37,677 bases of DNA, taken from IMG/VR virus record IMGVR_UViG_2541047910_000002. One strand, 5' to 3'. A program made the position numbers and the translations under genes. The notes under the pieces were generated by a model, which ran no database searches, had not been told where the DNA came from, and was given only the letters and a program-made list of their open reading frames with translations. This document shows, in pieces, positions 4,748-36,542 of this stretch (its first letter is position 1; each line of letters starts with the position of its first letter). The stretch is from a virus. Lineage: Duplodnaviria; Heunggongvirae; Uroviricota; Caudoviricetes.

Positions 4748-7700
4748 GCGTCGTATCCCCCCTGATCGCTGTAGTTACTCCTGGCTTTTGCCTTCAGCCT
4801 GCGTTCACGTTCATCAAGCTGGCGTGCCACCTCCCGCGCAATATCCTGCGCACTTTGTCCTGGCTGCATCTGAATGATGATCTGCGTCGGTGCCTCAATC
4901 CTGTAAACGGGCGGCACAGTGGCTGCACGACTCACCATCGCTTCGCCGCCTTTCGCGGGAAGTGCCAAAGGATGCAACGGTGGAAGCTCTGCAGGCGCGG
5001 CAGCAACGCCCATCATTCCGGCAACAACGGCAGCCAGTGCAGCTGTATTTCTCCGGCTGGTCACATTTGCCGGGCCGTTAACAATTTCCGGCCCGTTTTC
5101 ACCGACGATGCCAAACTGCCCGCGCGGGATATAGCCGCCGCTGTCATACATCCCCGCAATGCCATATCCCCATGACGGAAAACCACCCGATGGCATCATC
5201 ACTTTACCGTTTGTATTCACCGTCGCAGGTTGCTGACGCGTCACACTTTCCGGTAGTTTCGCCTTTGCGGCCTCTTTACTGACAACGCCGAGTTTCTCCA
5301 GCAACCAGGAAACGCCGGATTTCAGGGAGTCCAGCGGATGCATGACCATATTCAGCCCTTCCGCCAGTGCCTCCCCGAATCGCCGCCCCATTGCCGCTGC
5401 ACTCTGCAGTTCGGCAGAGGTTGACTTAACGGGCGTCAGCAGATCAGTAAACCAGCCCCACAGCGCCTGTACTTTGTCGCCAATCCACTGGAACACGGGC
5501 TTAAGCGGTTCGAATGCTGCACTGACGGGACCTGCCGCCGCTTTGAATCCTTCCACCACGCCACCAAGAAATGCGGTGATGGGTTGCCAGTATTTCCAGA
5601 CAACCAGCGCCACGCCCGCCAGTGCAGTAACCACAAGACCTATCGGACTGAGCAGAGCACCTAACAGACCAGATACGGCATACAGGGCAACGCGCAGCAT
5701 CGCCAGTGGACCAGATGCCAGTACTCGCAGCACCGTGCCTGCGGCGGCCAGTCCACCACGCAGTACCGCCAGAGGATTCATAAACATCACAGCAACAGCA
5801 CGTAAACCGGATAATCCAGACCGCAAAAGTGCAACCGGCGCACCTGCTACAGTTTTCAGGACATTTCCCGTCAGTGATGCCGTGCGGCGCAAAGACGACA
5901 ACGGCGCAGTAAGTAAACCCGCAGCGTGGCCCGATGAAGCAAGCCCGCGTCGCAGCAGTGCCAGTGGTGCGCCAGCCAGCCAGGACAACGCGCTGCTGGT
6001 TCGAGTTACTGCTGCCGTAACGGAAGGTAACGTTTTGATACCCAGCACAGAGAACCCCAGACGGATCACTGCCAGCGGCCCCAGCACTGCAGCTAACACC
6101 ACCGCTAAGGTGCCGAGGCCCACGGTAACCGCAGCCACAACAGCCGCCGCTTTCATCAGTGTGCCCGTCAGTTCCGGGTTAGCTTCCACCCAGCGACGCA
6201 ACGCCCCCGTGACGCTTTTCACCGTGAACAGAATATCCATCAGCGGCTGGCGCAGCGTTTCGCCCAGGCTGCTGAAGGTGTTCTGCGCTCCGGTTTTGAC
6301 CAGCAACCACTGAGCAGAAAGTGAGTCTTTGTTGATGTCGGATTCTTTCTGCATGGAACCGAGCGCATCATTGCCCGCTGTCAGTTTTAGCTGGCGCTGC
6401 AGTTCCGGCAGGTTGTTTGCCAGTTTCGCCGCGTCATCGCCAAACTCTTTACCAAACAACATGGTCATGGCAGACAGGCGCTTATCCTGCGGCAGCGCGT
6501 TCACCTTCTCCAGCACGCGCTGGATGGTTCCCATCGCATCCTTCGTCATCTGCTTTTCAATCACTTCAGGATTGAGTTTCAGCAGATTCATCCCTTCAAA
6601 GAAACTCTTGCTCTGCATGGTGGCAATGGACAATTCACGCACCATCGCGTTTGCTGCACTGGCTGCAACCTCTGGCGCAGCGCCCAGTGTCAGGAAGGTG
6701 GAACCCAGCGCCGCCGCTTTACGATAATCCAGACGATCAGCCACACCGCCCAGGCGTTGCATGACATCAATGATGTCTGCCCCTTTCGACATGGCGTTAT
6801 CATCCAGATAGTTCAGCGCATCACCGAGCTGTTCAATATTGCGGGTAGGGATTTTGTAGAGCTGGGCGATTTTCCCCAGACTTTCTGACAGTTCATCCGC
6901 TGGCAGCTCAAAGGCTGTTGCCGCCTTTGCCGCCGTACTGGCGAAGGCCAGCAGGTCACGTTTCTGGTCCTCCCAGCTGTCGTCAGGGTTTGCAACGTTC
7001 ATACGCGCACCACCTTCAACCAGTGCAGCGAAGTCCACCGCACCGTTTTCCATCGGCAACTGTTCGCTGGCAGCTTTGATGGCATCCTGCATTTCATAAA
7101 AACGTGCAGTGCGGTTGCCATTATCGTCACGCAGACCATTGACCTGCTTTGCCACACCTTTCATGGCATCTTCCATGCTGGTATAGCTTTTTACTGCCGC
7201 CATCACTGGCGTCCCCATTGCCAGCCCTGCCGCCGTGGTGGTGGCTCCGGTTCCTGCGATGCGATCGCGCACCTCCAGCGAACGGGCATAACTGGCACGC
7301 GCTGCATTCATCCTGCGCTGAGCTTCCCCCAGTCGCTTCAGCCGCGCCTCCTGTTTCGACAGTTCCTGGTTATAACGTGATGTTTCACGGGCTAAACGGG
7401 CAGTTGCTCCCGCATCATCTTTCGCAGAAATTCCCGCCCGGTACAGTTCTGCACGCACAAGCGCCGTTTGCTTCTGCAAATATTTTTGTTGTTCTTCCAG
7501 GCGTTGGACTGCCAGCGTTTGCCGACCTAAAGCCACAAGGTGCCGTTGTGATGGTTGTTCCATCGCTTCCAGCTCAGAACTAAGCAAATTTGCCTTCTGT
7601 CTGGCATAGTTCAGCCTGTCGCCTAACTTTTTGTTATCGGCCTGCAGCTTGCGAAATTTTTCCAGGCTGTTACCCGCCTGATTGAGTTGCTTTAATGCGT

Positions 7701-25009: not shown

Positions 25010-25822
25010 TTATTTTACTCTAAAGGCATCATCGGCTTTATGTGGTATAGGAGCATAACGCTCGGTACTTACTCGATGTAGCACCGCAAATATATTCAAA
25101 GGTGAACCATCCTTTAACCTAAGAGAAACATACATTGGCATCGTTGGTGTTAACCCCCGATTTAGGCCAACAGTGGCACCACTTACTTTCATACCATTTT
25201 CTAAAGATGCATTTTCAATAAACCCCTGAGTGAATGTGCTTTCTCCATTGACCATAACAACAACATCATCATGCTTAATTGTATTATCCATAATCATCAT
25301 AAAATCAGCAATTGGTTCTAAAAAATCCATTGCTGATAATTTCACTATCTTACCCCCATCACCATCCTTAATATCATAGGAGAGGTTTGAATACTTCTCA
25401 GGATTAGGAATATACGTATTTTGTTGATTAATGACATCTATAATTTGTCTTATTGCCACATCGATCCCATACGAATAAAGATCAATATATAGCGTTTGAG
25501 TAAGCAGAGCAGGCAAGGATATATTCTGGCAACGTATTGGTATAAATTTACACTTCCCGGACGATGCCTTAATTAAAGCATTTTGCCATTCCATTTTTAC
25601 CATGTTACTTGCCAAACTATTTTCTGTGACAAAAAAGAAAAAGAACGATACATTCTCCATTCCTAAATTCATCTTGTCAATAATACCCTCTCCGGGTTGG
25701 ATAGACCAAGAATCGTAGAATACGTTATCACGCCCATAAACATCTGCTAGTTTTTCCGCTATAACACTTACAAACCTTTTGTCACGGTGATTATGACTTA
25801 GAAAGATCATAGCATGCCCCAT
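25010..25822 (-). CDS. TIR-domain protein with an uncharacterised C-terminal domain (accessory gene)
   Basis: N-terminal about 130 aa shows TIR-like pattern (MIFLSHNHRDKRFV ... VTENSLASNMVKMEW with candidate catalytic Glu); C-terminal about 140 aa unassigned; A+T-rich; possible true start at 25810 (MIFLSH, GGGG SD). Confidence 0.6.
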   Translation of the reverse strand: MGHAMIFLSHNHRDKRFVSVIAEKLADVYGRDNVFYDSWSIQPGEGIIDKMNLGMENVSFFFFFVTENSLASNMVKMEWQNALIKASSGKCKFIPIRCQNISLPALLTQTLYIDLYSYGIDVAIRQIIDVINQQNTYIPNPEKYSNLSYDIKDGDGGKIVKLSAMDFLEPIADFMMIMDNTIKHDDVVVMVNGESTFTQGFIENASLENGMKVSGATVGLNRGLTPTMPMYVSLRLKDGSPLNIFAVLHRVSTERYAPIPHKADDAFRVK

Positions 25823-25891
25823 TAGAAATTAATGTGTAAGATCTGCGTAGAGAGTCACCGACAGTGTACCAATAATAATCTTCTGCGCGCA

Positions 25892-25910
25892 ATCGTATCC
25901 CCGCCACGCC
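25892..25910 (-). other. putative cos cohesive-end site
   Basis: minus strand reads GGCGTGGCGGGGATACGAT followed by TGCGCGC, resembling the P2/186 19-nt cohesive end as I recall it; lies between Q and A where cos is expected. Confidence 0.4.
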
Positions 25911-26401
25911 TGCCCGCTTTATGCAGTGGTTTTCATGCACCTGCATGACATGAGTAAAAGCTCGCCAGTTCTAGCAGGTCTCTGCAAAAACGATCCTCAA
26001 TCGATCATGCGATTTCATGCAGCATAGTCATGCACAGCCAAGGGAAGCGTAAATCCGTATCTGAATGACCGCTGAAAAGCGAATCATACGGGTTTACAAA
26101 GATGAAAGTCCGCTGTGAGTGAAAAGCGGACATTAACTCCTTGCTTTTTGGCACTGAAACAGAGCGAAGCAGCATGTAAGCTGTTACGGATGCGCAGCGG
26201 TGACAACAGCAACTTCAATTAAGGAAATGCTCTTGGTTTTCGGGGAGACTTTTCGAGCGATATATGATAATGAAGACACTAAAAAACTGAACAGAAACGT
26301 CTAGCTCAATATGACTTCTGTTCAGGTATAAATGGTCTATTTATATATTCTCTCTTCAAATCCTTACTGAATACTCTCGAAGATGGCTAACGCCCCCTCT
26401 C

Positions 26402-27364
26402 TTAACCTTCATAGTTCATGCCGCCAAGATACGAAGGTATCATCATTAATGATTTAACCCTTTCTTTTTCTTTTTCGGTGAGATGACGACATGCAAATGG
26501 GTAAATATTGATCAAAAATGTCTTGAGTTCGTCAAATGCCTCATCTGAATATAGGGTCCCAGATCTTAACTCATTCATTATTGTCATGACCCATTTTATA
26601 AACACAGTTGGCATCATTACATCAGCTATATCTTCCCAGCCATCAATAAGGCCATTGTTTGTTTGTTTTCTAACATACTGCCGGAGTGCTTGGTCGCAGT
26701 TGCCTCGACACGTCCAAAAAATATGTTCATTATACTCTGGTTCTTTTTCGTAGTCGGTGCGGATTCTTTGCCATATAGTGATAATTCCCTTGTCGTCTTG
26801 AGACAGAAGCTCTTTCTTGCAAACTTTGCATTTTAAGCTAGGTTCATCGGAAAATATTCTTGCGGGTTTGGGGTTTTCTGTTTTCCACTCAGATAACGAC
26901 TTTGGGAAGTACCTTTCGGCAATTTCCAATCCTCTGGAAGAGTGTAAAAGTTCCCTCTCTATTTTCTCTTTATCGAAAACCTGAAATTCAATTCGTCCTT
27001 TCAACCCGTCAAGTATTCCAGACAGACCTGCACTAGCAAGAGTTGAATAGAACCCGATAAATCCTTGGCAGTTATTCGCTATTACTCGATCAGTAATATT
27101 TGCATCATCTCCTGGATTAACTGAATTTCCACTATGAGCTTTATGCTTACAGCTTACCAACCAACGGATAATTGTTTCCCCGCCGACACCAGTCCTTTTT
27201 TCTTCGGCTATAATATCAACCCCACCGTCAGCCCCTCTATCTGGGTCAGATATAATTTTATATCCCAGAAAAGCTAAGAAGTCGCGAGAAAAAAGTTCAA
27301 ATGTGTCTTGCAGCCCTGTTGCTTTATGAGCCTCTGGTATTTCTTTGAAGTCTAATACTGGCAT
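26402..27364 (-). CDS. Mrr-like PD-(D/E)xK nuclease-domain protein with Cys-rich C-terminal domain (accessory gene)
   Basis: N-terminal FLGYKIISDPDRGADGGVDIIAEEK ... WLVSCKHK resembles the Mrr_cat restriction-endonuclease core; C-terminal half has CKVCKK and CRGNCDQ Cys pairs; A+T-rich. Confidence 0.5.
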   Translation of the reverse strand: MPVLDFKEIPEAHKATGLQDTFELFSRDFLAFLGYKIISDPDRGADGGVDIIAEEKRTGVGGETIIRWLVSCKHKAHSGNSVNPGDDANITDRVIANNCQGFIGFYSTLASAGLSGILDGLKGRIEFQVFDKEKIERELLHSSRGLEIAERYFPKSLSEWKTENPKPARIFSDEPSLKCKVCKKELLSQDDKGIITIWQRIRTDYEKEPEYNEHIFWTCRGNCDQALRQYVRKQTNNGLIDGWEDIADVMMPTVFIKWVMTIMNELRSGTLYSDEAFDELKTFLINIYPFACRHLTEKEKERVKSLMMIPSYLGGMNYEG

Positions 27365-27646
27365 TTTTATGGGGTCCTTAAGTTGTTAATGCTTATTGGG
27401 TGGAAAGAACCGTATTTAAACACGGAGTTTCTGCCTCTGTAAATTTAATATGTAGAACACTCATCACTTTTTATAACTGACAATAGGATATTTAGACGTC
27501 TGTTTTTGGCACAAAGCAGACAAAAAACTGAAGGCCCACTGTGAACGAGAAACGGACTATGATACTAACAAGAGAGCATCACTGTTAATATTTGAACAAT
27601 TAATGCTCAGCTATTTATCTATTTTTACAATTAGAAAGGACTTGTA

Positions 27647-28057
27647 ATGGTTACGGTTGATGAATTAAAGATGAAATATCCGGACGCGAATGCCTGGCAA
27701 ATGGGCGACAGCCCTGAACTGGCTAACGAGCTTGCAGCGCTTATCAAAAAAGGAATTAAAACGGCCTCCTGCGGCTCTTATGCCTCTTACCAGAAGGAAG
27801 AGTTTGCCCCAAGGATTGGGAGCTATAACATCATCCTTAACGGCCAAGATGTACCGGTATGCGTGACCCGGCTGGTGTCGATGCGACTGGTGCGTTTTTG
27901 TGATGTTACTGCCGAGTTCGCTCGCAAGGAAGGTGAAGGCGATTTGAGTCTTGAATATTGGCAGAGAGAGCATCAACGATTTTTTACATGTGAAGGTTAC
28001 TTTTCTGATGATATGGAGCTGATTATGGAAGAGTTTGAAGTTGTTGATGTTTTGTAA
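27647..28057 (+). CDS. ASCH-domain protein
   Basis: 136 aa; pattern ...ELIKKGIKTASCG...FTCEGYFSD... typical of ASCH/PUA-like fold; AAAGGA SD 8 nt upstream. Confidence 0.6.
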   Translation: MVTVDELKMKYPDANAWQMGDSPELANELAALIKKGIKTASCGSYASYQKEEFAPRIGSYNIILNGQDVPVCVTRLVSMRLVRFCDVTAEFARKEGEGDLSLEYWQREHQRFFTCEGYFSDDMELIMEEFEVVDVL

Positions 28058-28209
28058 TCCAACAACGTTTATGCATGTCAGATTAGAATAACTGAGTACC
28101 GTTTTATCACGTGAAATTTGTATTAATGCCCGCCTCTGGCACAAAGCGAACGAGCACTTATCAAAATGCCCACCCACCTTACGCCTCGTTTCACTCGTTG
28201 CCAAAACTA

Positions 28210-28239
28210 GCCCCCATCAGAATGAATCCTCTTGGGGGC
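28210..28239. terminator. hairpin between convergent ASCH gene and tum/dinI-like gene
   Basis: gccccca (28210-28216) / tgggggc (28233-28239) stem; the minus strand has TAGTTTTGG after the stem. Confidence 0.45.
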
Positions 28240-28247
28240 AACGTTTC

Positions 28248-28481
28248 TTAATGCAGCCAGCTGTCGTCTTCCCACACCTTCTGCATAATTTTCATCACTT
28301 GTTTTCTTTCTTCGTCCAGTTGCAATCCGGTAAGTTCCACACCGTTAGAGCTACCTTTGCGGATACGAATTACCGTTTTGGGATACAGGGGGCGCAGATT
28401 GCGGTAAAGCTCGGATTCAAGGGCGTCCAGGGTAGACTGGCTAATCTTCTGCTCTTTATCGATCATTATTTCAATGCGCAT
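28248..28481 (-). CDS. DinI-family protein (Tum-like antirepressor C-terminal module)
   Basis: 77 aa, MRIEIMIDKEQKISQSTLDALESELYRNLRPLYP...VWEDDSWLH resembles E. coli DinI; GAGGTGA SD overlapping the upstream gene stop. Confidence 0.75.
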   Translation of the reverse strand: MRIEIMIDKEQKISQSTLDALESELYRNLRPLYPKTVIRIRKGSSNGVELTGLQLDEERKQVMKIMQKVWEDDSWLH

Positions 28482-28492
28482 AAAAAGTCACC

Positions 28493-28681
28493 TCAACTGA
28501 TGACATCCATTGAGCGGTTGTATTCGTGGGTTCTGATTTTTGCCATGAGTTCATCTGTTAGTTCAGAAACCCACTGCAAAGCCAGCCCCTTCTCTTCATC
28601 ACTACACTCACTAGTCGCTACAAGCTTAAGAAAAAAATCAATGCGCTGGAGCTTCAAAGACTCCAAAAAATAGTCCTGCAT
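28493..28681 (-). CDS. small protein, first gene of the LexA-controlled operon (possible Tum N-terminal part)
   Basis: 62 aa with AGGAGG SD; translationally coupled to the DinI-like gene; LexA box about 45 bp upstream. Confidence 0.55.
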   Translation of the reverse strand: MQDYFLESLKLQRIDFFLKLVATSECSDEEKGLALQWVSELTDELMAKIRTHEYNRSMDVIS

Positions 28682-28722
28682 CTTTCCTCCTATGACACCA
28701 AAGCAATACTGTATACATAACC

Positions 28723-28741
28723 ACTGTTTATATTTACAGTA
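28723..28741. promoter_or_regulatory. LexA (SOS) box
   Basis: aCTGTttatatttACAGta fits the CTGT-N8-ACAG consensus; a second partial box (tactgtatacataaccactg) overlaps at 28708-28727. Confidence 0.7.
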
Positions 28742-28833
28742 TATAATAATCTTACTGATGTAAAACGTTTTTTTACGTTCATCAGCCTGATATGCCTGGT
28801 ATTATTAAGAGCACGAATTGTTAACCCGCGTAA

Positions 28834-31248
28834 TTAATACAGGTTCCGCCACTTATCATCTTCCTGCAAACGCTGGTTCCGATAGAAGATACGCAGGCCT
28901 GCTCCTGACGGAATACTGCCGCCGCGAAGGAGTAAATCGACCTCTTTCTCGCTACCATCAAATCCTCTGGACTTCAGCTCATAGACGAGCTGCAGTCGCT
29001 GATGGTCTGTAATTCGCTGTTTGTAGTCTTTACGCCGTTTCGGTTTAACCAGGCGTAACCTTGCAGCCAGTTCCCGGCGCTCTTTTTTGCTCATACTGTG
29101 CAGGTAATCGTGCAACTCCTTGTCATCCATGCGGGTAATGTCCGTTCTGATGTCCCCATCAGCTGATTTATCTTTCTCCTGTTGGTTCAAATTTTCAGCA
29201 AGGGGACAGTTATTGCCACGAGTCCAAGGGGCGCAAGCGCCCTGGTCGGCTGCCGCCTCCTGAACGTCAACGGCTTTACGAACCATTTTCCACTTCACTG
29301 CATGGGTGCAGATCTTGCCCTCTGCAATGGGTGACCAGATGCCATAAATACGAATGCCGTGATCGCCATAGGCGGTCGGCTCTTCGTTGATTTCATAAGC
29401 GGTTCTGATGAGGTGATATTTACGGGGAACCAGTACGCCGCCCTGCTTCATGATGTAGGTGGCAAAACAACCAGCATCAGCAGCAGCCAGAATGGCATCA
29501 AGACGCGGGTTATCCAGTACCGGCGCACCTGCTTTTTTGTCACCCTGTTGCCTTGCCGCCTGACCAGCCAGCAAGCGAAGTTCACGGTAAGCCTGACGCC
29601 CCGGAATACCAAAGAAGCGGAATTGCTGAACACGATGCAGAGACGCCCAGGCATTCACGTATTCAGCGTTATCACGCAGAGATTTACCCGTTTCCTTGCT
29701 GATCTCGCCAGCCAGACCACGACCGTCAATGTTCTTACTGATATATTTCGCGATGTAGCTTGTCGGCGTTCCTTTGCGCGGGTTAATCAACTCAGACTTA
29801 AAGCGCGGCCCAGTGTTATTGCCCAGCTCCTCGCGGTCTTCACGGATGGCAAACTTACGCAGTAATGCAGTGATGGCACGGCGGTCTTTTTTGCGCATGA
29901 AACACAACAGGTGCCAGTGAACTGTGCCATCATGATGCGGCTCAGCCACCCGCACGCCATACCAGCGCAACCCGGCTTTGTGCATCGCCTTACGAAATGC
30001 AGCAAACATGCCGACCAGATAATCGCTGCTTTGTCTTACCGTCGCGTTTGTCCAGGTCGGGTTTGGTCTGCCGTTATTTAGCGTGGAATGGAAACGCGAC
30101 GGACAGGTGATAGTGTAGAAAACGGCGCAGTCACCGCGCATTTCCGCAATAAGCTCCAGACCTTTAACACAGGCCATCATCTCATTGCGGCGATGCGCAG
30201 GGTTGCTGCTGCTGGCGTTTACCACCTCCTCCATGTCCAGCGTGTCGCCGTCTTCGTTCACCAGTTCATGAGAACGGAAAAACTCCAGCGACTTACGGCG
30301 CTGCTCACGTTTATGCATCACGGCTTCATAGCTGACATAAGGAGATGCTTTTTTGCTGACCAGGCAAACAGCGCGCAACTGCTCTTCCCGCCATTCGCAA
30401 CGCATCTTCCATAATTTCCGATACCACCAGTCGGCGCACAACATACGCGCCAGCGAACCCGGAATGAGTTCATAGGGCACGGGTTTACGGCGGTTTCTTT
30501 TCCGACGGAGTTGCTCAAACGCAGGTGGGATGACATCCAGACGCAGGGTTTCCGCTGCCACCTTTTCCCATGTCTTGCGGATTTCTTCTGGCTTAACGTC
30601 ATCGGTGGCATACAAATCACCACAAGCTGCATCAAGGCACATACTCATATGCGCAGCTACCAGGGTGGACAGGCGTTTCACCTGATCCTGACTCATTTCA
30701 GGCAGGATCAGCAGGCCGTCCAGCCCTTCATGGCTTGCCATAAAGCGAAAAGATGCAGATAGCTGACTGTCGCGTACATGCTCCAGTCGTTCCAGACATG
30801 GCTTAATCGTCTCACGTAAATAGCGGGAATAAGCCTTTGGCCTGCCCAGGCTGCTGAAGTATTCAATACGTTGCATCAGCGGCTTGCTGATATGGGAAGG
30901 CAGGGCGTTGACGTCCGCCAGAATGACCATGTCTGAATTAAAACGCTGCTGCTCATGCGCCAGCTTTGCCCGGCTAATGAGCTTATCCTGCTCCATTTCG
31001 CGCTGGACAGGATCACGTGATTCATTAAAGAAATAACGCTCCCAGACCTGATCACTCAGTGCCTCGCGGCGCAACTGTTCCTGCTCGTTATCGGCAGCGT
31101 ACAGAGTGATCAGGTTTGAAAGCGTAGAAACCGGCGCAACTTCCGCCGGGTCCAGATAAGGGTTAATGGCCTTTTTCGGGCTGTTCCATGAGAATGCTGC
31201 GGCAGCCTCGTTAAAGCCGCAGCAGTTGTTCATATCGGCATGACTCAT
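28834..31248 (-). CDS. A: rolling-circle replication initiator A
   Basis: 804 aa with HxH (VHWHLL) and YIAKYISK active-site tyrosine motifs typical of P2 gpA; ATG overlaps the dam stop. Confidence 0.9.
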
Positions 31249-32102
31249 GCACGTACTCCGTACACGGCAGAACTATCCACGCCACGCGAATAATCAAATC
31301 CCATCCAGCAGCGCGGCCCGGAAACAGCAATGATTTCTGTTGCTGATTTACCCTCGCCAGTTGCCACACCGATGCTGCGTTTAACCTTGATATAGTGGTG
31401 AGTAAAATTGCGATACAGCGAACGGATCAGGGATGTGTCACTGTTAGAAACAATGACCGGATGTCCTTCTGATGACCGATGTTCAAGAATGGATGCCAGG
31501 TGATACTGGTCATCTTCAGTGAAACCATCAGTGTGATAGCCGGAAAACGTACCGTCATATGGCGGATCGCAATACACCACATCTCCCGCCTTCAACATCG
31601 CCAGCGTTTCATCAAAGCTGGCGCAGATAAACGTTGCTCGCTGGGCTTTTTCTGCAAATGTGCGAAGTTCTTTTTCAGGGAAATACGGATTTTTATAATT
31701 ACCGTAGGGAATGTTGAAATGCCCGCTCTTGTTATAGCGACATAAACCACGGTAACCGTGACGATTGAGATACAGGAAATATACCGCTTTCATGAAATCA
31801 GTAATTTCAGTTGAGCAGTTAAACTCCTGCCTTATGTTGTAATAAGCCACCTCCCTGTTTGCGATCTCAAATAAAACTCTGGCGCGAGATATAAACGATT
31901 CACAATCAGCGGCAACCTTTTTATAGAGGTTGATTAAATCAGGATTAATATCCGCAACCAGATAGCTGGGATAATCCGTTTCCATCATCACAGCACAGGA
32001 ACCCGCGAAAGGTTCAACCAGTCGCGGGCCAGCAGGAAGGTATTTTTTCAGTTCTGGCATAATGGCGGTTTTATTTCCCGCCCATTTCAGGATAGTGCTC
32101 AT
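31245..32102 (-). CDS. dam: DNA adenine methyltransferase (Dam-like)
   Basis: LKWAGNK...LVEPFAGS (AdoMet motif) and CDPPY catalytic motif; start placed at MSTILKWAG, overlapping the upstream stop. Confidence 0.85.
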
Positions 32103-32326
32103 ACAGCACCTCCGTTGTAATGTTTGCCTTTCAGTTCTGCGATTTCCTGACAGGTAATGCAAAGCTGCACTCCCGGAATGGCGCGGCGTCGTGCTGGCGG
32201 AATTGGCGCTTCACATTCAATGCAAAGTACGCGTGACACGCCCGGTGATTTGGCACGGGCTGCACGGATATGGCGCTGGCGTTCTTCTTCAACGCGCTGC
32301 TGTACGAGATCCATTGCATCAGCCAT
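32099..32326 (-). CDS. TraR/DksA-type C4 zinc-finger protein
   Basis: 75 aa with CIECEAPIP...CITCQ (CxxC-N17-CxxC). Confidence 0.7.
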   Translation of the reverse strand: MADAMDLVQQRVEEERQRHIRAARAKSPGVSRVLCIECEAPIPPARRRAIPGVQLCITCQEIAELKGKHYNGGAV

Positions 32327-34248: not shown

Positions 34249-34845
34249 ATGTCAACATCAAAGTACCCAAGTGAGATCAAAATAAATCCCAATAAAGGTG
34301 GTAAGGCTGCGATTGAGCGATTAGTCGAAGCCTATGGCTTTACGACACGACAGGCTTTAGCTGATCACTTGGAAGTATCAAAAAGCACACTAGCGAACAG
34401 GTATTTGCGGGATACATTTCCTGCTGACTGGATAATCCAATGTGCTCTTGAAACAGGAACCTCCCTCAAATGGTTAACTACCGGACAAGGCCTTAAGCAA
34501 AGCTCGCTGACAGCAGCTACAGAAGAGCTTGTTAAGTTTCGCCTTGCCGCAGGCAAAATGATTGAAGACGGTTCATATGTCTTCGATTCATCATTTCTTC
34601 CTGCAAACCTTTCATCACCAATTGTTGTTCAGGATGGACTCGTCACATACATTTGTGATCAAAAATTTTCTGAAGTACTTGATGGAAACTGGTTAATCAA
34701 TATCGACGGAACCTATTCCATTCGAAAAATCACAAGGCTTCCTAAAGGAATGATTAAAATTACAACAGCAGAGAATAGCTTTGAATGTGCATTTTCTGAT
34801 ATTGAAGTGGTTGCTTGTATAAGAAGTACAATAGTCTCGAATTAA
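34249..34845 (+). CDS. cI: CI-like immunity repressor
   Basis: 198 aa, N-terminal HTH (TTRQALADHLEVSKSTLANRY), divergent from apl/cII. Confidence 0.75.
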   Translation: MSTSKYPSEIKINPNKGGKAAIERLVEAYGFTTRQALADHLEVSKSTLANRYLRDTFPADWIIQCALETGTSLKWLTTGQGLKQSSLTAATEELVKFRLAAGKMIEDGSYVFDSSFLPANLSSPIVVQDGLVTYICDQKFSEVLDGNWLINIDGTYSIRKITRLPKGMIKITTAENSFECAFSDIEVVACIRSTIVSN

Positions 34846-34865: not shown

Positions 34866-36542
34866 ATGAATTCATTTGCCATCGTTATACTCTTATTAGC
34901 ATTTCTCGCCCCTGTTCTAGCTGTAATATTATTTAAACAAAGTAAAAAACACAAAGCGGCTATAGATAACCTGACAGCTAACAACATAGCCCTTTCTAAC
35001 CAACTGATTGAAAATCAAGAAAAACTAGCACAGACCGTACGAGAATTATCAGAGCTTGAAGGGCGAGCAGCACCATTGTGGCAATACGAAGAATTGCACA
35101 GCGCAGTAATGGATGCAGAGAATAAGATAAAAAATGCGGACTCAATAGCCAAGCAAAAAATAGATGAAGCCCAAATTAAGGCGGCTAAAACAGTAAACGA
35201 AGCAAATTATCAAGCTCAGATGACAATAAGCAACGCTAATAGCGAAGCTATAGCAATCACCAAAGACGCTCGCGATGCACGCCTGAAAGCCAAAGAACGT
35301 CTTGATAATGCTAATAATAAAGCAAATGAGCTAATCTCAAATGCTAATGACAATGCAGTAAAAATTATTTCTGATGCAGAAGAAAGAGCAAAGGAGATTG
35401 CTGGTTCAGCATATGAAGCTAAAGAGTTTGCAGAAAAATATGAAGCAGTTGCAAAATCAATGAAAAATAAAATTGAAGGTTATGGTGATGAATGGATCAT
35501 CCCTAACCGTAGTGTACTTGATGAGCTGGCAGAAAATTATGAATTTACAGATGCAGGCAAGGAATTACAAAAAGCCAGAGAGTTAACCAAATCATTAATA
35601 AAAACTAATAAAGCTGCTTCGTGTGATTATGTTGAGCAAAACAGGCGTAATACTGCCATAAACTTTGTTTTGGATGCCTTCAATGGAAGAGTTGACAGTA
35701 TTTTATCAAAAGTCAAACACAACAATTTTGGAAAACTTTCCCAAGAAATAAAAGATGCATTTCAACTAGTAAATTACAATGGCTCTGCCTTTAGGTCCGC
35801 AAAAATAAGTGACATCTATCTTCAGGCAAGACTCAACGAGCTAAAATGGGGTGTAGCAGTTAATGAAATTATGCTCGAAGAAAAAGAAGAGCAAAGAAGG
35901 ATTAAAGAACAGCTTCGTGAAGAGGAAAGAGCTCGTAGAGAATATGAAAAAGCGATAAAAGAAGCTGAAAAAGAAGAAAAAGCTATTCAGCAAGCTATAA
36001 ATAAAGCAACGAAAGAACTTATGCTTGCAAATGAAGAACAACGCTTAGCTTTAGAGCAAAAAATAGCTGAACTACAGTTAAAATATGAAGAAGCTGAAGC
36101 TAAAAATCAACGAGCTATTTCTATGGCTCAACAAACCAGATCAGGCCACGTCTATATCATTAGTAATATTGGTTCATTTGGCGAAGATGTATATAAAATT
36201 GGAATGACACGCCGCCTTGAACCACTTGATCGTGTTCGTGAACTCGGAGATGCTAGTGTTCCTTTTTCGTTCGATGTTCATGCGATGATTTATAGTGATG
36301 ATGCACCATCATTAGAAAACCATCTGCATAAAGTTTTCAACGAAAAGCAGGTCAATAAAATTAACTCACGAAAAGAGTTTTTTAACGTAAATTTAAAAGA
36401 AATCAAATCAGTTATTGAAGACATGAACATCAACGCCCACTGGACAATGTTTGCAGAGGCGAAAGAATATAGAGAGTCTCTATCTATTGAGCAGGAGCGC
36501 AAAGCAGCCACTTCCGCCAACGATGAACTACATGTTGCTTAG
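34866..36542 (+). CDS. membrane-anchored coiled-coil protein with C-terminal T5orf172/GIY-YIG-like domain (DUF4041-like architecture), accessory gene
   Basis: N-terminal TM helix, long Ala/Lys/Glu-rich coiled-coil, C-terminal GHVYIISN...YKIGMTRR...VPFSFDVHAMIYSDDAPSLENHLHKVF...RKEFFNV; AAAGGA SD; markedly A+T-rich; inserted between cI and int. Confidence 0.6.
   Translation: MNSFAIVILLLAFLAPVLAVILFKQSKKHKAAIDNLTANNIALSNQLIENQEKLAQTVRELSELEGRAAPLWQYEELHSAVMDAENKIKNADSIAKQKIDEAQIKAAKTVNEANYQAQMTISNANSEAIAITKDARDARLKAKERLDNANNKANELISNANDNAVKIISDAEERAKEIAGSAYEAKEFAEKYEAVAKSMKNKIEGYGDEWIIPNRSVLDELAENYEFTDAGKELQKARELTKSLIKTNKAASCDYVEQNRRNTAINFVLDAFNGRVDSILSKVKHNNFGKLSQEIKDAFQLVNYNGSAFRSAKISDIYLQARLNELKWGVAVNEIMLEEKEEQRRIKEQLREEERARREYEKAIKEAEKEEKAIQQAINKATKELMLANEEQRLALEQKIAELQLKYEEAEAKNQRAISMAQQTRSGHVYIISNIGSFGEDVYKIGMTRRLEPLDRVRELGDASVPFSFDVHAMIYSDDAPSLENHLHKVFNEKQVNKINSRKEFFNVNLKEIKSVIEDMNINAHWTMFAEAKEYRESLSIEQERKAATSANDELHVA

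What the first reader, a model, noticed from the sequence alone, without database searches (positions are those of the whole stretch)
28248..28741. LexA box upstream of a two-gene Tum/DinI-like module implies SOS-inducible 186-type control
A canonical LexA box (CTGT-N8-ACAG) lies about 45 bp upstream of a 62-aa gene that is translationally coupled, through an SD overlapping its stop, to a 77-aa DinI-family gene. In phage 186 the LexA-repressed tum gene encodes an antirepressor with a DinI-like part; here the equivalent appears as two separate ORFs in different frames, either a natural two-gene variant or a split tum. Together with 186-like cII, apl and cI, this predicts SOS induction, unlike P2.
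Basis: partly seen in the sequence, partly recalled or inferred. Interest (0 to 1): 0.45.

Follow-up and report, generated by a model that had tools for sequence, protein, structure and literature searches.

The report
LexA-controlled tumA–tumB prophage induction module
This is the DNA-damage switch of a Fels-2/186-type P2-like prophage of E. coli, a LexA-repressed promoter driving a small antirepressor gene (tumA) and a DinI-like gene (tumB); the arrangement is real but has already been described and tested in close relatives.

Summary
On the minus strand, just downstream of the gpA-like replicase gene, there is a LexA box (28722-28741, 17/20 to consensus, the only one in the window). It is followed by a 62-aa ORF (28493-28681) and a 77-aa DinI-family ORF (28248-28481), then a strong hairpin.

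The interpretation also holds, but it is not new. PSP3 annotates the same two genes as tumA and tumB, and Fels-2 has them too. Lemire et al. 2011, citing Bunny et al. 2002, describe tum as split in these phages, with the upstream gene encoding the antirepressor.

The 62-aa protein has no pairwise BLAST match to 186 Tum. Profile methods link it to Tum residues about 2-44 (hhalign 95.6%, E 1e-8; reciprocal PHROG HMM hits).

In E. coli HS prophage DuoHS, the published delta-tum deletion removes exactly this ORF (60/62 identical) and abolishes mitomycin C induction, as does lexA(Ind-).

The module occurs in 1125 of 5426 complete E. coli genomes. The fused 186 form is full length in only 5.

Two points go beyond the finding:
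- The operator is a colicin-type pair of overlapping SOS boxes.
- The same TumA accompanies CI repressors that are 39-55% identical overall but 70-82% identical in the N-terminal domain.

The parts
28754..28786 (-). Hairpin between the gpA stop codon and the tumA promoter. It probably insulates or terminates early-operon read-through. Its 3' arm contains the putative -35 element.
   Evidence: RNA fold -12.6 kcal/mol, z -3.2. Lemire 2011 notes terminator-like palindromes ahead of the LexA boxes of the Gifsy SOS loci.
28736..28764 (-). Putative sigma-70 promoter. The arrangement is -35 TTTACA (28764-28759), a 17-nt spacer, and -10 TACTGT (28741-28736), the same layout as annotated for 186 p95. 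An alternative -10, TATACT (28743-28738), would give a 15-nt spacer.
   Evidence: Read from the sequence by analogy with the 186 p95 annotation. The consensus scan did not call it. Inferred, not shown.
28722..28741 (-). SOS box 1, TACTGTAAATATAAACAGTG. It overlaps the -10 element.
   Evidence: 17/20 to consensus, none in shuffles. Both half-site cores (CTGT and ACAG) are kept in 13 of the 15 lineages compared; ST15phi14.1 and ST13phi12.1 keep one.
28707..28726 (-). SOS box 2, CAGTGGTTATGTATACAGTA. It overlaps box 1 by 5 nt. Together the two boxes form a colicin-type double operator.
   Evidence: 15/20 to consensus. Across Fels-2-like relatives the half-sites are conserved and the spacer varies. 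The combined operator is about 90% identical to the sequence 8-9 nt upstream of the colicin R and colicin Y genes. [quoted passage not shown]
28493..28681 (-). tumA, 62 aa. It encodes an acidic protein (pI 4.6) predicted to be a helical hairpin, the presumed antirepressor of CI.
   Evidence: phrog_698 at 7.5e-38. Homology to the 186 Tum N-terminus. 97% identical to Fels-2 STM2728 and to the E. coli HS gene deleted as 'tum'. dN/dS about 0.1. AlphaFold2 pLDDT 90, helices 2-23 and 28-61.
28487..28504 (-). Small hairpin with the tumA stop codon in its loop and the tumB Shine-Dalgarno sequence in its 3' arm. It probably couples tumB translation to tumA translation.
   Evidence: -8 kcal/mol, z -1.4, weak on its own. 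A hairpin with a different stem sequence is kept at this position in ST258phi16.1; ST13phi12.1 folds differently.
28248..28481 (-). tumB, 77 aa, a phage DinI-family protein.
   Evidence: PF06183 at 6.6e-23. Matches E. coli DinI structure 1GHH at 2.7e-6. 100% identical to Fels-2 STM2726.1, 78% to PSP3 TumB, 41% to 186 Tum residues 71-145. It scores below the NCBIfam DinI equivalog cut-off (42.7 against 111), so it is a phage paralogue and not the host DinI.
28201..28239 (-). Probable terminator of the SOS operon. It is a GC-rich hairpin (28210-28239) followed by UAGUUUUGG.
   Evidence: RNA fold -21 kcal/mol, z -3.1. Its tail has too few T residues for the scan's criterion, so the scan missed it. 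DNA homology to most related phages ends at the tumB stop codon.
34249..34845 (+). cI, a 186-family immunity repressor and the presumed target of TumA.
   Evidence: Pfam Phage_CI_repr and Phage_CI_C, with no other domain at E <= 0.01. 100% identical to the CI of phage vB_EcoM-813R9. 55% identical to the CI of E. coli HS DuoHS.
28834..31248 (-). gpA-like replication endonuclease, the gene immediately upstream. It occupies the same position relative to tum as in 186, PSP3 and Fels-2.

Best explanation
The region is the SOS operon of a Fels-2-like (186-type, Peduoviridae) prophage in an E. coli chromosome.

Proposed mechanism:
1. In an undamaged lysogen, LexA occupies a double operator made of two overlapping SOS boxes. 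The operator covers the -10 region of a promoter lying just downstream of the replicase gene, so the operon stays silent.
2. After DNA damage, RecA-stimulated LexA self-cleavage frees the promoter and a short bicistronic mRNA is made.
3. The first product, TumA, is a 62-aa acidic helical hairpin. It is the free-standing counterpart of the N-terminal part of 186 Tum.
4. TumA binds the 186-family CI repressor, most likely its conserved N-terminal DNA-binding domain, and stops it from binding its operators. The early lytic promoter then fires and the prophage enters lytic growth.
5. The second product, TumB, is a DinI paralogue whose translation is coupled to that of tumA. It probably modulates RecA-filament activity during the response and is dispensable for induction.
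6. A strong hairpin ends the operon, and cargo genes that vary between phages begin beyond it.

What is shown here: the gene and site anatomy, the homologies, the conservation, and the identity of this ORF with the experimentally deleted E. coli HS gene.

What comes from the literature: Tum of 186 binds CI and prevents operator binding; delta-tum and lexA(Ind-) block induction in E. coli HS.

What is inferred: LexA occupies both boxes, the CI N-terminal domain is the contact surface, and the role of TumB.
For: - **LexA operator.**. The double operator aligns with colicin operators.
- **Position.** The operon sits directly after gpA, as in 186, PSP3 and Fels-2.
- **TumA homology to the Tum N-terminus.**
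  - 186 Tum residues 1-70 hit phrog_698 at 6.7e-6, residues 7-44 on profile positions 7-44.
  - The window protein hits phrog_8554 at 2.2e-8 and phrog_1993 (the family that PSP3 TumA matches at 2.7e-32) at 1.4e-3.
  - hhalign gives 95.6% probability and E 1.2e-8.
- **TumB.** It is a DinI-family protein.
- **Real gene.** dN/dS is about 0.1 and the module is in 1125 of 5426 E. coli genomes.
- **Prior description.**
  - PSP3 annotates tumA as 'UV induction of prophage' and tumB as DinI-like.
  - Lemire 2011 (PMC3121763) says Fels-2 and PSP3 have tum split in two. [quoted passage not shown]
- **Experiment.** The delta-tum primers of PMC11195241 fuse the ATG and TGA of E. coli HS ORF ECHS_RS04495, which is 60/62 identical to the window ORF, and leave the DinI-like gene intact. 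[quoted passage not shown]
- **Autonomy of TumA.** Stand-alone tumA with no dinI gene, still behind a LexA box, occurs in ESSI2_ev040 and YenM_06.16-2. Stand-alone homologues with no dinI also occur in ENT90 and YenM_324.
Against: - No binding or expression data exist for this exact prophage.
- Its CI is only 55% identical to the DuoHS CI and 44% to the Fels-2 CI, so TumA activity on this CI is extrapolated.
- The consensus promoter scan did not call a promoter.
- Box 2 lacks a canonical CTGT left half.
- Pairwise BLAST finds no similarity between the 62-aa protein and 186 Tum or PSP3 TumA. The homology rests on profile methods.
- The PSP3 antirepressor assignment is a personal communication relayed through two papers.
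Confidence: 0.88

Rival explanations
1. The two ORFs are the remains of a 186-type fused tum gene broken by a frameshift or stop codon. On this reading the module is decaying and the prophage is no longer SOS-inducible.
For: 186 encodes the two parts as one 146-aa protein. Here the two ORFs are in different frames.
Against: - Both ORFs are under strong purifying selection (dN/dS 0.05-0.16).
- Each has its own Shine-Dalgarno sequence and ATG.
- The split layout is in 1125 E. coli genomes, against 5 with a full-length fused form.
- The same layout occurs in PSP3, Fels-2 and many Klebsiella phages.
- The region corresponding to the 186 linker (residues about 45-70) is replaced by unrelated sequence, not merely interrupted.
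- E. coli HS, with the same layout, is inducible.
Confidence: 0.02
2. LexA controls the operon, but the 62-aa protein does not act on CI. It would trigger induction through another target such as Apl/Cox, CII, LexA or RecA.
For: - TumA is at least 97% identical in phages whose CI proteins are only 39-55% identical overall. That is unusual for a specific repressor-antirepressor pair.
- Direct CI binding has been reported only for the distant 186 Tum.
- The Phollow papers say only that Tum inhibits 'pro-lysogenic regulators'.
Against: - The CI N-terminal domain stays 70-82% identical within the group that shares this TumA, but is only 44-49% identical in phages with 186-, PSP3- or Yersinia-type TumA.
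- 186 and PSP3 share a gpA that is 93% identical, yet they differ in both TumA (20%) and the CI N-terminal domain (38%). TumA therefore follows the CI class and not the genome backbone.
- The protein is homologous to the part of 186 Tum that lies outside its DinI-like half.
Confidence: 0.08
3. The 62-aa ORF is a non-functional leader, and the DinI-like protein is the only effector of the LexA-controlled unit.
For: PGAP and most phage records call the 62-aa ORF 'hypothetical protein'. It has no Pfam or NCBIfam family.
Against: - Deleting only this ORF, with the DinI-like gene left intact, abolishes induction in E. coli HS.
- Several phages carry tumA without any dinI gene.
- The ORF is under purifying selection.
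- AlphaFold2 predicts a confident fold.
Confidence: 0.02

Closest known systems
E. coli HS prophage DuoHS tum (ECHS_RS04495) with the adjacent DinI-like gene (Nat Microbiol 2025, PMC12055606; preprint PMC11195241)
   Same: TumA is 60/62 identical. The double SOS operator, Shine-Dalgarno sequences, tumA-tumB junction and position after gpA are the same. Induction by mitomycin C requires tum and cleavable LexA.
   Different: CI is 55% identical (N-terminal domain 78%, C-terminal domain 42%). The cargo genes downstream of tumB and beside cI differ.
Salmonella prophage Fels-2, STM2728 plus STM2726.1 (Bunny et al. 2002, as cited in PMC3121763)
   Same: TumA is 97% identical and TumB 100% identical. 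The operator is the same double box. The lexA-null lethality in Salmonella is attributed to this prophage.
   Different: CI is 44% identical. Fels-2 has a further gene, STM2726, after tumB, where the window has a terminator followed by different cargo.
Phage PSP3 tumA/tumB
   Same: The two-gene layout after gpA is the same, behind a LexA box (19/20). TumB is 78% identical. tumA is annotated 'UV induction of prophage'.
   Different: PSP3 TumA belongs to another subfamily, phrog_1993, and has no pairwise BLAST match to the window protein. PSP3 has a single SOS box and no junction hairpin.
Coliphage 186 Tum (p95 SOS operon)
   Same: A LexA box overlaps the -10 of a promoter after gene A. The module has an N-terminal antirepressor part plus a DinI-like part. 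CI and CII are of the 186 family, and the Apl-position protein is Cox-like.
   Different: In 186 the two parts are fused into one 146-aa protein with internal starts, there is a single SOS box, and orf97 follows in the operon. The N-terminal parts are about 16-19% identical.
Colicin operators with two overlapping SOS boxes (colicin R and Y examples)
   Same: 37-39 nt of the 40-nt operator query are about 90% identical, with the same 15-nt offset between boxes.
   Different: In colicin plasmids the operator drives a toxin operon and lies 8-9 nt from the start codon. Here it drives an antirepressor gene and ends 25 nt before the ATG.
Gifsy prophage SOS loci (dinI homologue followed by antirepressor GfoA/GftA; PMC3121763)
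   Same: A LexA-repressed operon preceded by a terminator-like palindrome encodes a small antirepressor and a DinI homologue. The repressor is not cleaved. Antirepressors can act in trans across prophages.
   Different: The gene order is reversed, with dinI first. The Gifsy prophages are unrelated lambdoid phages with different repressor and antirepressor families.

Membership tests
186-type SOS (tum) operon of P2-like phages | A LexA operator overlaps the promoter immediately upstream of tum | tested here: met
   17/20 box, none in shuffles. It overlaps the putative -10 element. It is conserved in 15 lineages. LexA binding itself was not tested.
186-type SOS (tum) operon of P2-like phages | Located directly downstream of replication gene A, on the same strand, at the end of the early region | tested here: met
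186-type SOS (tum) operon of P2-like phages | The product is homologous to the N-terminal (non-DinI) part of 186 Tum | tested here: met
   Pairwise BLASTP is negative. Profile methods are positive: PHROG cross-hits and hhalign at 95.6% probability, E 1.2e-8, columns 2-44.
186-type SOS (tum) operon of P2-like phages | The antirepressor and DinI-like parts are fused in one polypeptide of about 146 aa | tested here: not met
   There are two ORFs in different frames, each with its own start. The module is therefore of the PSP3/Fels-2 split type and is not a 186 Tum orthologue in architecture.
186-type SOS (tum) operon of P2-like phages | Partnered with a 186-family CI repressor with no detectable self-cleavage domain, plus 186-type CII and an Apl/Cox-like protein | tested here: met
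   CI has Phage_CI_repr and Phage_CI_C, with no other Pfam domain at E <= 0.01. CII matches PF06892. The Apl-position protein matches phrog_575.
186-type SOS (tum) operon of P2-like phages | The protein binds CI and blocks operator binding, and it is required for SOS induction | not testable with these tools
   The requirement for induction has been shown for the 97%-identical E. coli HS gene. CI binding has been shown only for 186 Tum (cited).
PSP3/Fels-2 split tumA-tumB module | tumA of about 60 aa, followed within a few nucleotides by a 77-aa DinI-like tumB | tested here: met
   The ORFs are 62 aa and 77 aa with an 11-nt gap. Identity is 97% and 100% to the Fels-2 pair and 78% to PSP3 TumB.
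DinI family (Pfam PF06183) | Scores above the Pfam gathering threshold over the whole domain | tested here: met
   81.3 bits against a cut-off of 24.2, profile positions 1-63 of 63. Matches structure 1GHH at 2.7e-6.
Host DinI equivalog (NCBIfam NF007893) | Scores above the equivalog cut-off | tested here: not met
   42.7 bits against a cut-off of 111. It is a phage paralogue and not the chromosomal dinI.
Colicin-type double SOS operator | Two 20-nt SOS boxes that overlap by a few nucleotides, with sequence similarity to colicin operators | tested here: met
   The boxes lie at 28722-28741 and 28707-28726. They align at about 90% with the sequence upstream of the colicin R and Y genes.
Colicin-type double SOS operator | Binds two LexA dimers, giving very tight repression and late induction | not testable with these tools
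   Stated for colicin genes in PMC2994835. Not measured for any tum promoter that I could find.

The most novel reading that the evidence does not exclude
TumA of the Fels-2 group may be a broad-range antirepressor. On this reading it recognises the conserved N-terminal DNA-binding domain shared by many heteroimmune 186-family CI repressors. One induced P2-like prophage could then cross-induce co-resident relatives of different immunity. The promoter also uses a double SOS operator about 90% identical to those of colicin genes. That would give the same tight, late, subpopulation-type firing, and it may reflect exchange of a regulatory cassette between Col plasmids and phages.
Probability: 0.35. 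Interest if true: 0.4.

Novelty: already known. Interest (0 to 1): 0.15.

Why it matters
**Annotation.** The 62-aa gene is labelled 'hypothetical protein' by PGAP in every E. coli record listed, and the module is present in about a fifth of complete E. coli genomes. Some phage records call it 'levan regulatory domain protein'. It has no Pfam or NCBIfam model. Yet it is the gene that decides whether these very common P2-like prophages respond to DNA-damaging antibiotics. Naming it TumA would make the SOS-inducibility of such prophages predictable from sequence.

**Biology.** Nothing here overturns current understanding. The double colicin-type operator and the pairing of one TumA with many CI variants are modest, testable refinements.

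Tried and rejected
- **Pairwise BLASTP.** The 62-aa protein gave no alignment against 186 Tum or PSP3 TumA. I did not take this as absence of homology, because profile methods agree on one register.
- **Family libraries.** Pfam, NCBIfam and PADLOC have no family for TumA. The PDB sequence search found nothing.
- **Fold search.** Foldseek of the AlphaFold2 model against the PDB returned only generic helical hairpins, best E 0.78. This is uninformative.
- **Promoter and terminator scan.** The scan called no promoter, and the only terminator-like site was the junction hairpin. The promoter is inferred from the 186 p95 layout. The operon terminator comes from folding.
- **Bunny et al. 2002.** The paper (PMC151935) is not held in the library, so its content is cited only through Lemire 2011.
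- **P2 cos site.** A search with the sequence as I remember it found no match. I dropped this line.
- **TumA and CI correlation.** TumA identity correlates with CI N-terminal-domain identity (Spearman 0.80), but it correlates even better with gpA identity (0.90). The statistic is therefore confounded by shared ancestry. Only the 186/PSP3 contrast separates the two effects.
- **Literature search for 'TumA TumB PSP3'.** It returned no relevant papers.
Full report
**1. What is in the sequence**

The genes of the finding lie on the minus strand.

A gpA-like replication endonuclease gene (28834-31248) ends 93 nt before the LexA site. The intergenic stretch begins with a hairpin at 28754-28786 (-12.6 kcal/mol, z -3.2).

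The core pattern CTGT-N8-ACAG occurs once in the 37.7-kb window, at 28724-28739. On its own this is weak evidence, because 39 of 100 shuffles contain at least one. The 20-mer at 28722-28741 reads TACTGTAAATATAAACAGTG on the gene's strand. It matches the LexA consensus at 17 of 20 positions, and no shuffle of the window gives such a match.

The 62-aa ORF (28493-28681) starts at an ATG preceded by AGGAGG, with no in-frame alternative start upstream. Its TGA stop runs into GAGGTGA. The 77-aa ORF (28248-28481) starts 11 nt after the stop, in another frame.

A small hairpin at 28487-28504 holds the stop codon in its loop and the downstream Shine-Dalgarno sequence in its 3' arm. A hairpin with a different stem sequence is kept at the same position in Klebsiella phage ST258-KPC3phi16.1, although ST13-OXA48phi12.1 folds differently.

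After the 77-aa ORF comes a GC-rich hairpin at 28210-28239 followed by UAGUUUUGG (-21 kcal/mol, z -3.1).

**2. What the two proteins are**

The 77-aa protein is a DinI-family protein:
- Pfam PF06183 at 6.6e-23.
- E. coli DinI structure 1GHH at 2.7e-6.
- 41% identical to 186 Tum residues 71-145.
- 78% identical to PSP3 TumB.
- 100% identical to Fels-2 STM2726.1.
- It scores below the NCBIfam cut-off for the host DinI equivalog, so it is a phage paralogue.

The 62-aa protein has no Pfam, NCBIfam or PADLOC family. BLASTP finds no match to 186 Tum or PSP3 TumA. That negative result is misleading, for three reasons:
- *PHROG profiles.*
  - The window protein matches phrog_698 (7.5e-38).
  - It also matches phrog_8554 (2.2e-8), the family of a Yersinia protein annotated 'tum protein'.
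  - It also matches phrog_1993 (1.4e-3), the family that PSP3 TumA matches at 2.7e-32.
  - In the other direction, residues 1-70 of 186 Tum match phrog_1993 (2e-23), phrog_8554 (3.3e-12) and phrog_698 (6.7e-6, residues 7-44 on profile positions 7-44).
- *Bridging sequence.* The Yersinia protein is hit in the same frame and register by both queries.
- *Profile-profile comparison.* A small alignment of the 62-aa family against one of the Tum N-terminal family gives 95.6% probability and E 1.2e-8 over columns 2-44 of both.

The 62-aa protein is thus a remote homologue of the non-DinI part of Tum.

It is a real gene. Against relatives that are 84-87% identical, dS is about 0.9 and dN/dS about 0.1. 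AlphaFold2 predicts a confident helical hairpin (pLDDT 90, helices 2-23 and 28-61). The protein is acidic (pI 4.6). A fold search of the model was uninformative.

**3. This arrangement is already described and tested**

The PSP3 record annotates the same two genes after its gene A. They are tumA ('similar to 5' end 186 tum; UV induction of prophage') and tumB ('similar to dinI and 3' end of 186 tum').

Fels-2 has a 62-aa ORF, STM2728, that is 97% identical, followed by the DinI-like STM2726.1.

Lemire et al. 2011 (PMC3121763) make three relevant statements:
- 186 Tum binds its repressor and prevents operator binding.
- Tum looks like an antirepressor fused to DinI.
[quoted passage not shown] This is attributed to a personal communication cited in Bunny et al. 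2002.

Bunny et al. could not be read here.

The most direct evidence comes from the Phollow papers (PMC11195241 and PMC12055606). In E. coli HS, a delta-tum strain and a lexA(Ind-) strain both fail to lyse or to form virion foci after mitomycin C. Their deletion primers read ATAGGAGGAAAG-ATG-TGA-GGTGACTTTTATGCGCATTG.

I fetched the E. coli HS prophage region. This sequence fuses the start and stop codons of ECHS_RS04495, a 62-aa 'hypothetical protein' that is 60/62 identical to the window ORF, and it leaves the DinI-like gene intact.

**4. How common it is**

The 801-bp region matches 1125 of 5426 complete E. coli genomes, 1070 of them over at least 80% of its length and four at 100% identity. 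The listed records are annotated 'DinI-like family protein | hypothetical protein | replication endonuclease'.

The fused 186-type tum is found at full length in only 5 genomes. The split form is the usual one in E. coli, and the textbook fused form is the rarity.

In the phage collection the module is present in Klebsiella, Salmonella, Escherichia and Yersinia P2-like phages. The nearest deposited phage is vB_EcoM-813R9, whose CI is 100% identical.

Several phages carry a stand-alone tumA homologue with no dinI gene: ESSI2_ev040, vB_YenM_06.16-2, vB_YenM_324 and ENT90. In ESSI2_ev040 and vB_YenM_06.16-2 it sits behind a LexA box. TumA is therefore the autonomous core of the module and TumB an optional companion.

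**5.

*(a) The operator is double.* A second box, CAGTGGTTATGTATACAGTA (28707-28726), overlaps box 1 by 5 nt.
- Across Fels-2-like relatives the half-sites are kept while the spacer between them varies, as expected for a protein-binding site. 186, PSP3, ESSI2_ev040 and the Yersinia phage have a single box.
- The combined 40-nt sequence matches 318 plasmid records at 80% identity or more over the aligned part; 164 of them cover at least 80% of it. In the two I inspected, it lies 8-9 nt upstream of the colicin R and colicin Y genes.
- The alignment is nearly continuous through both boxes.

By inference, this tum promoter is held more tightly, and fires later, than a single-box promoter such as 186 p95.

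*(b) One TumA accompanies many CI variants.* TumA is at least 97% identical in phages whose CI is only 39-55% identical to the window's.
- The divergence is concentrated in the CI C-terminal domain (28-42% identity). The N-terminal helix-turn-helix domain stays at 70-82%.
- The two experimentally inducible prophages, Fels-2 and DuoHS, have TumA proteins that are 60/62 identical and CI proteins that are 41% identical (N-terminal domain 69%, C-terminal domain 28%).
- In contrast, 186 and PSP3 share a gpA that is 93% identical but differ in both TumA (20%) and the CI N-terminal domain (38%).

This pattern suggests that TumA recognises the N-terminal domain class of CI. It is an inference. The overall correlation is confounded by shared ancestry, since TumA identity tracks gpA identity even better (Spearman 0.90 against 0.80).

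**6. Mechanism and rivals**

Best explanation, confidence about 0.88:
1. LexA holds the double operator over the -10 region of a promoter laid out like 186 p95. The elements are -35 TTTACA, a 17-nt spacer and -10 TACTGT. This layout is inferred, because the consensus scan did not call it.
2. DNA damage removes LexA.
3. TumA is made and inactivates CI.
4. TumB is co-translated and modulates RecA activity.
5. The hairpin at 28210-28239 ends the operon.

Rivals:
- *A broken tum pseudogene* is contradicted by purifying selection, prevalence and the E. coli HS experiment.
- *A leader ORF with DinI as the only effector* is contradicted by the in-frame deletion and by phages that lack dinI.
- *TumA acting on a target other than CI* remains possible at low probability, because CI binding has been shown only for the distant 186 protein.

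**7. Verdict**

The finding is correct and well read, but it describes a known module: TumA/TumB of PSP3 and Fels-2, called Tum in DuoHS. Novelty is 'already known' and interest is low.

The practical value is for annotation. TumA has no curated family and is called hypothetical in the E. coli records listed, in a module present in more than a thousand complete genomes.

The double colicin-type operator and the broad pairing of TumA with CI variants are small, testable additions. I did not find either noted in the papers available here.

Noticed in passing
window 34866-36542 (+): A 558-aa gene lies between cI and the integrase gene. It is a PD-Lambda-1 anti-phage defence protein (PADLOC PDLC03976 at 3e-120; Pfam DUF4041 plus T5orf172/MUG113). 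It is cargo in the cI-int hotspot of the prophage.
   Followed up: partly
window 25010-28057: The stretch between the tumB terminator and the portal gene holds variable cargo. It comprises a TIR_2-domain protein (25010-25822, -), an Mrr_cat-like nuclease-domain protein (26402-27364, -) and an ASCH-domain protein (27647-28057, +). DNA homology to most related phages stops at the tumB stop codon, so this is a swap-in hotspot, possibly for defence genes.
   Followed up: partly
L005 204-1145 (Klebsiella phage 4LV2017) and L006 1-936 (ST340-VIM1phi10.2): The CI repressors of these phages are 311-313 aa long and carry two tandem copies of the CI N-terminal helix-turn-helix domain. They still sit beside an Apl protein 100% identical to the window's and the same TumA (98% identical).
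   Followed up: no
L007, L009, L012, L013, L014 and L004, just downstream of tumB: A conserved frame, AACGTTG-[hairpin]-CAAGGTTGAACAACGAG...GCGAGGCGTTAG, follows tumB in these phages. The hairpin stems differ in sequence between phages but stay paired. The element is not T-rich, so it may not be a simple terminator. Its function is unknown.
   Followed up: no
L015 563-823, L016 5951-6133, L019 559-798, L020 568-801: ESSI2_ev040, vB_YenM_06.16-2, ENT90 and vB_YenM_324 carry a stand-alone tumA homologue with no dinI gene. In vB_YenM_324 the ORF is not annotated at all.
   Followed up: partly
window 28707-28741; L017 485-523; L018 1501-1537: The tumA double SOS operator is about 90% identical to the operator upstream of the colicin R and colicin Y genes on small Col plasmids. 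The 40-nt query matches 318 plasmid records. It is open whether this reflects exchange of a cassette or convergence on an optimal double LexA site.
   Followed up: partly
window 31245-32105 (-): A D12-class Dam-like adenine methyltransferase gene lies immediately upstream of gpA and overlaps it. The same arrangement is seen in Fels-2 and the Klebsiella relatives; 186 has a different gene at this position.
   Followed up: no
phage and protein database records of the 62-aa gene: Many database entries extend this ORF upstream to 84-101 aa, and some name it 'levan regulatory (domain) protein'. In ST340-VIM1phi10.2 the annotated 96-aa version (6146-6436) starts upstream of the LexA boxes, so such extensions are probably mis-called starts. 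The window has no in-frame start upstream of the ATG at 28681.
   Followed up: partly
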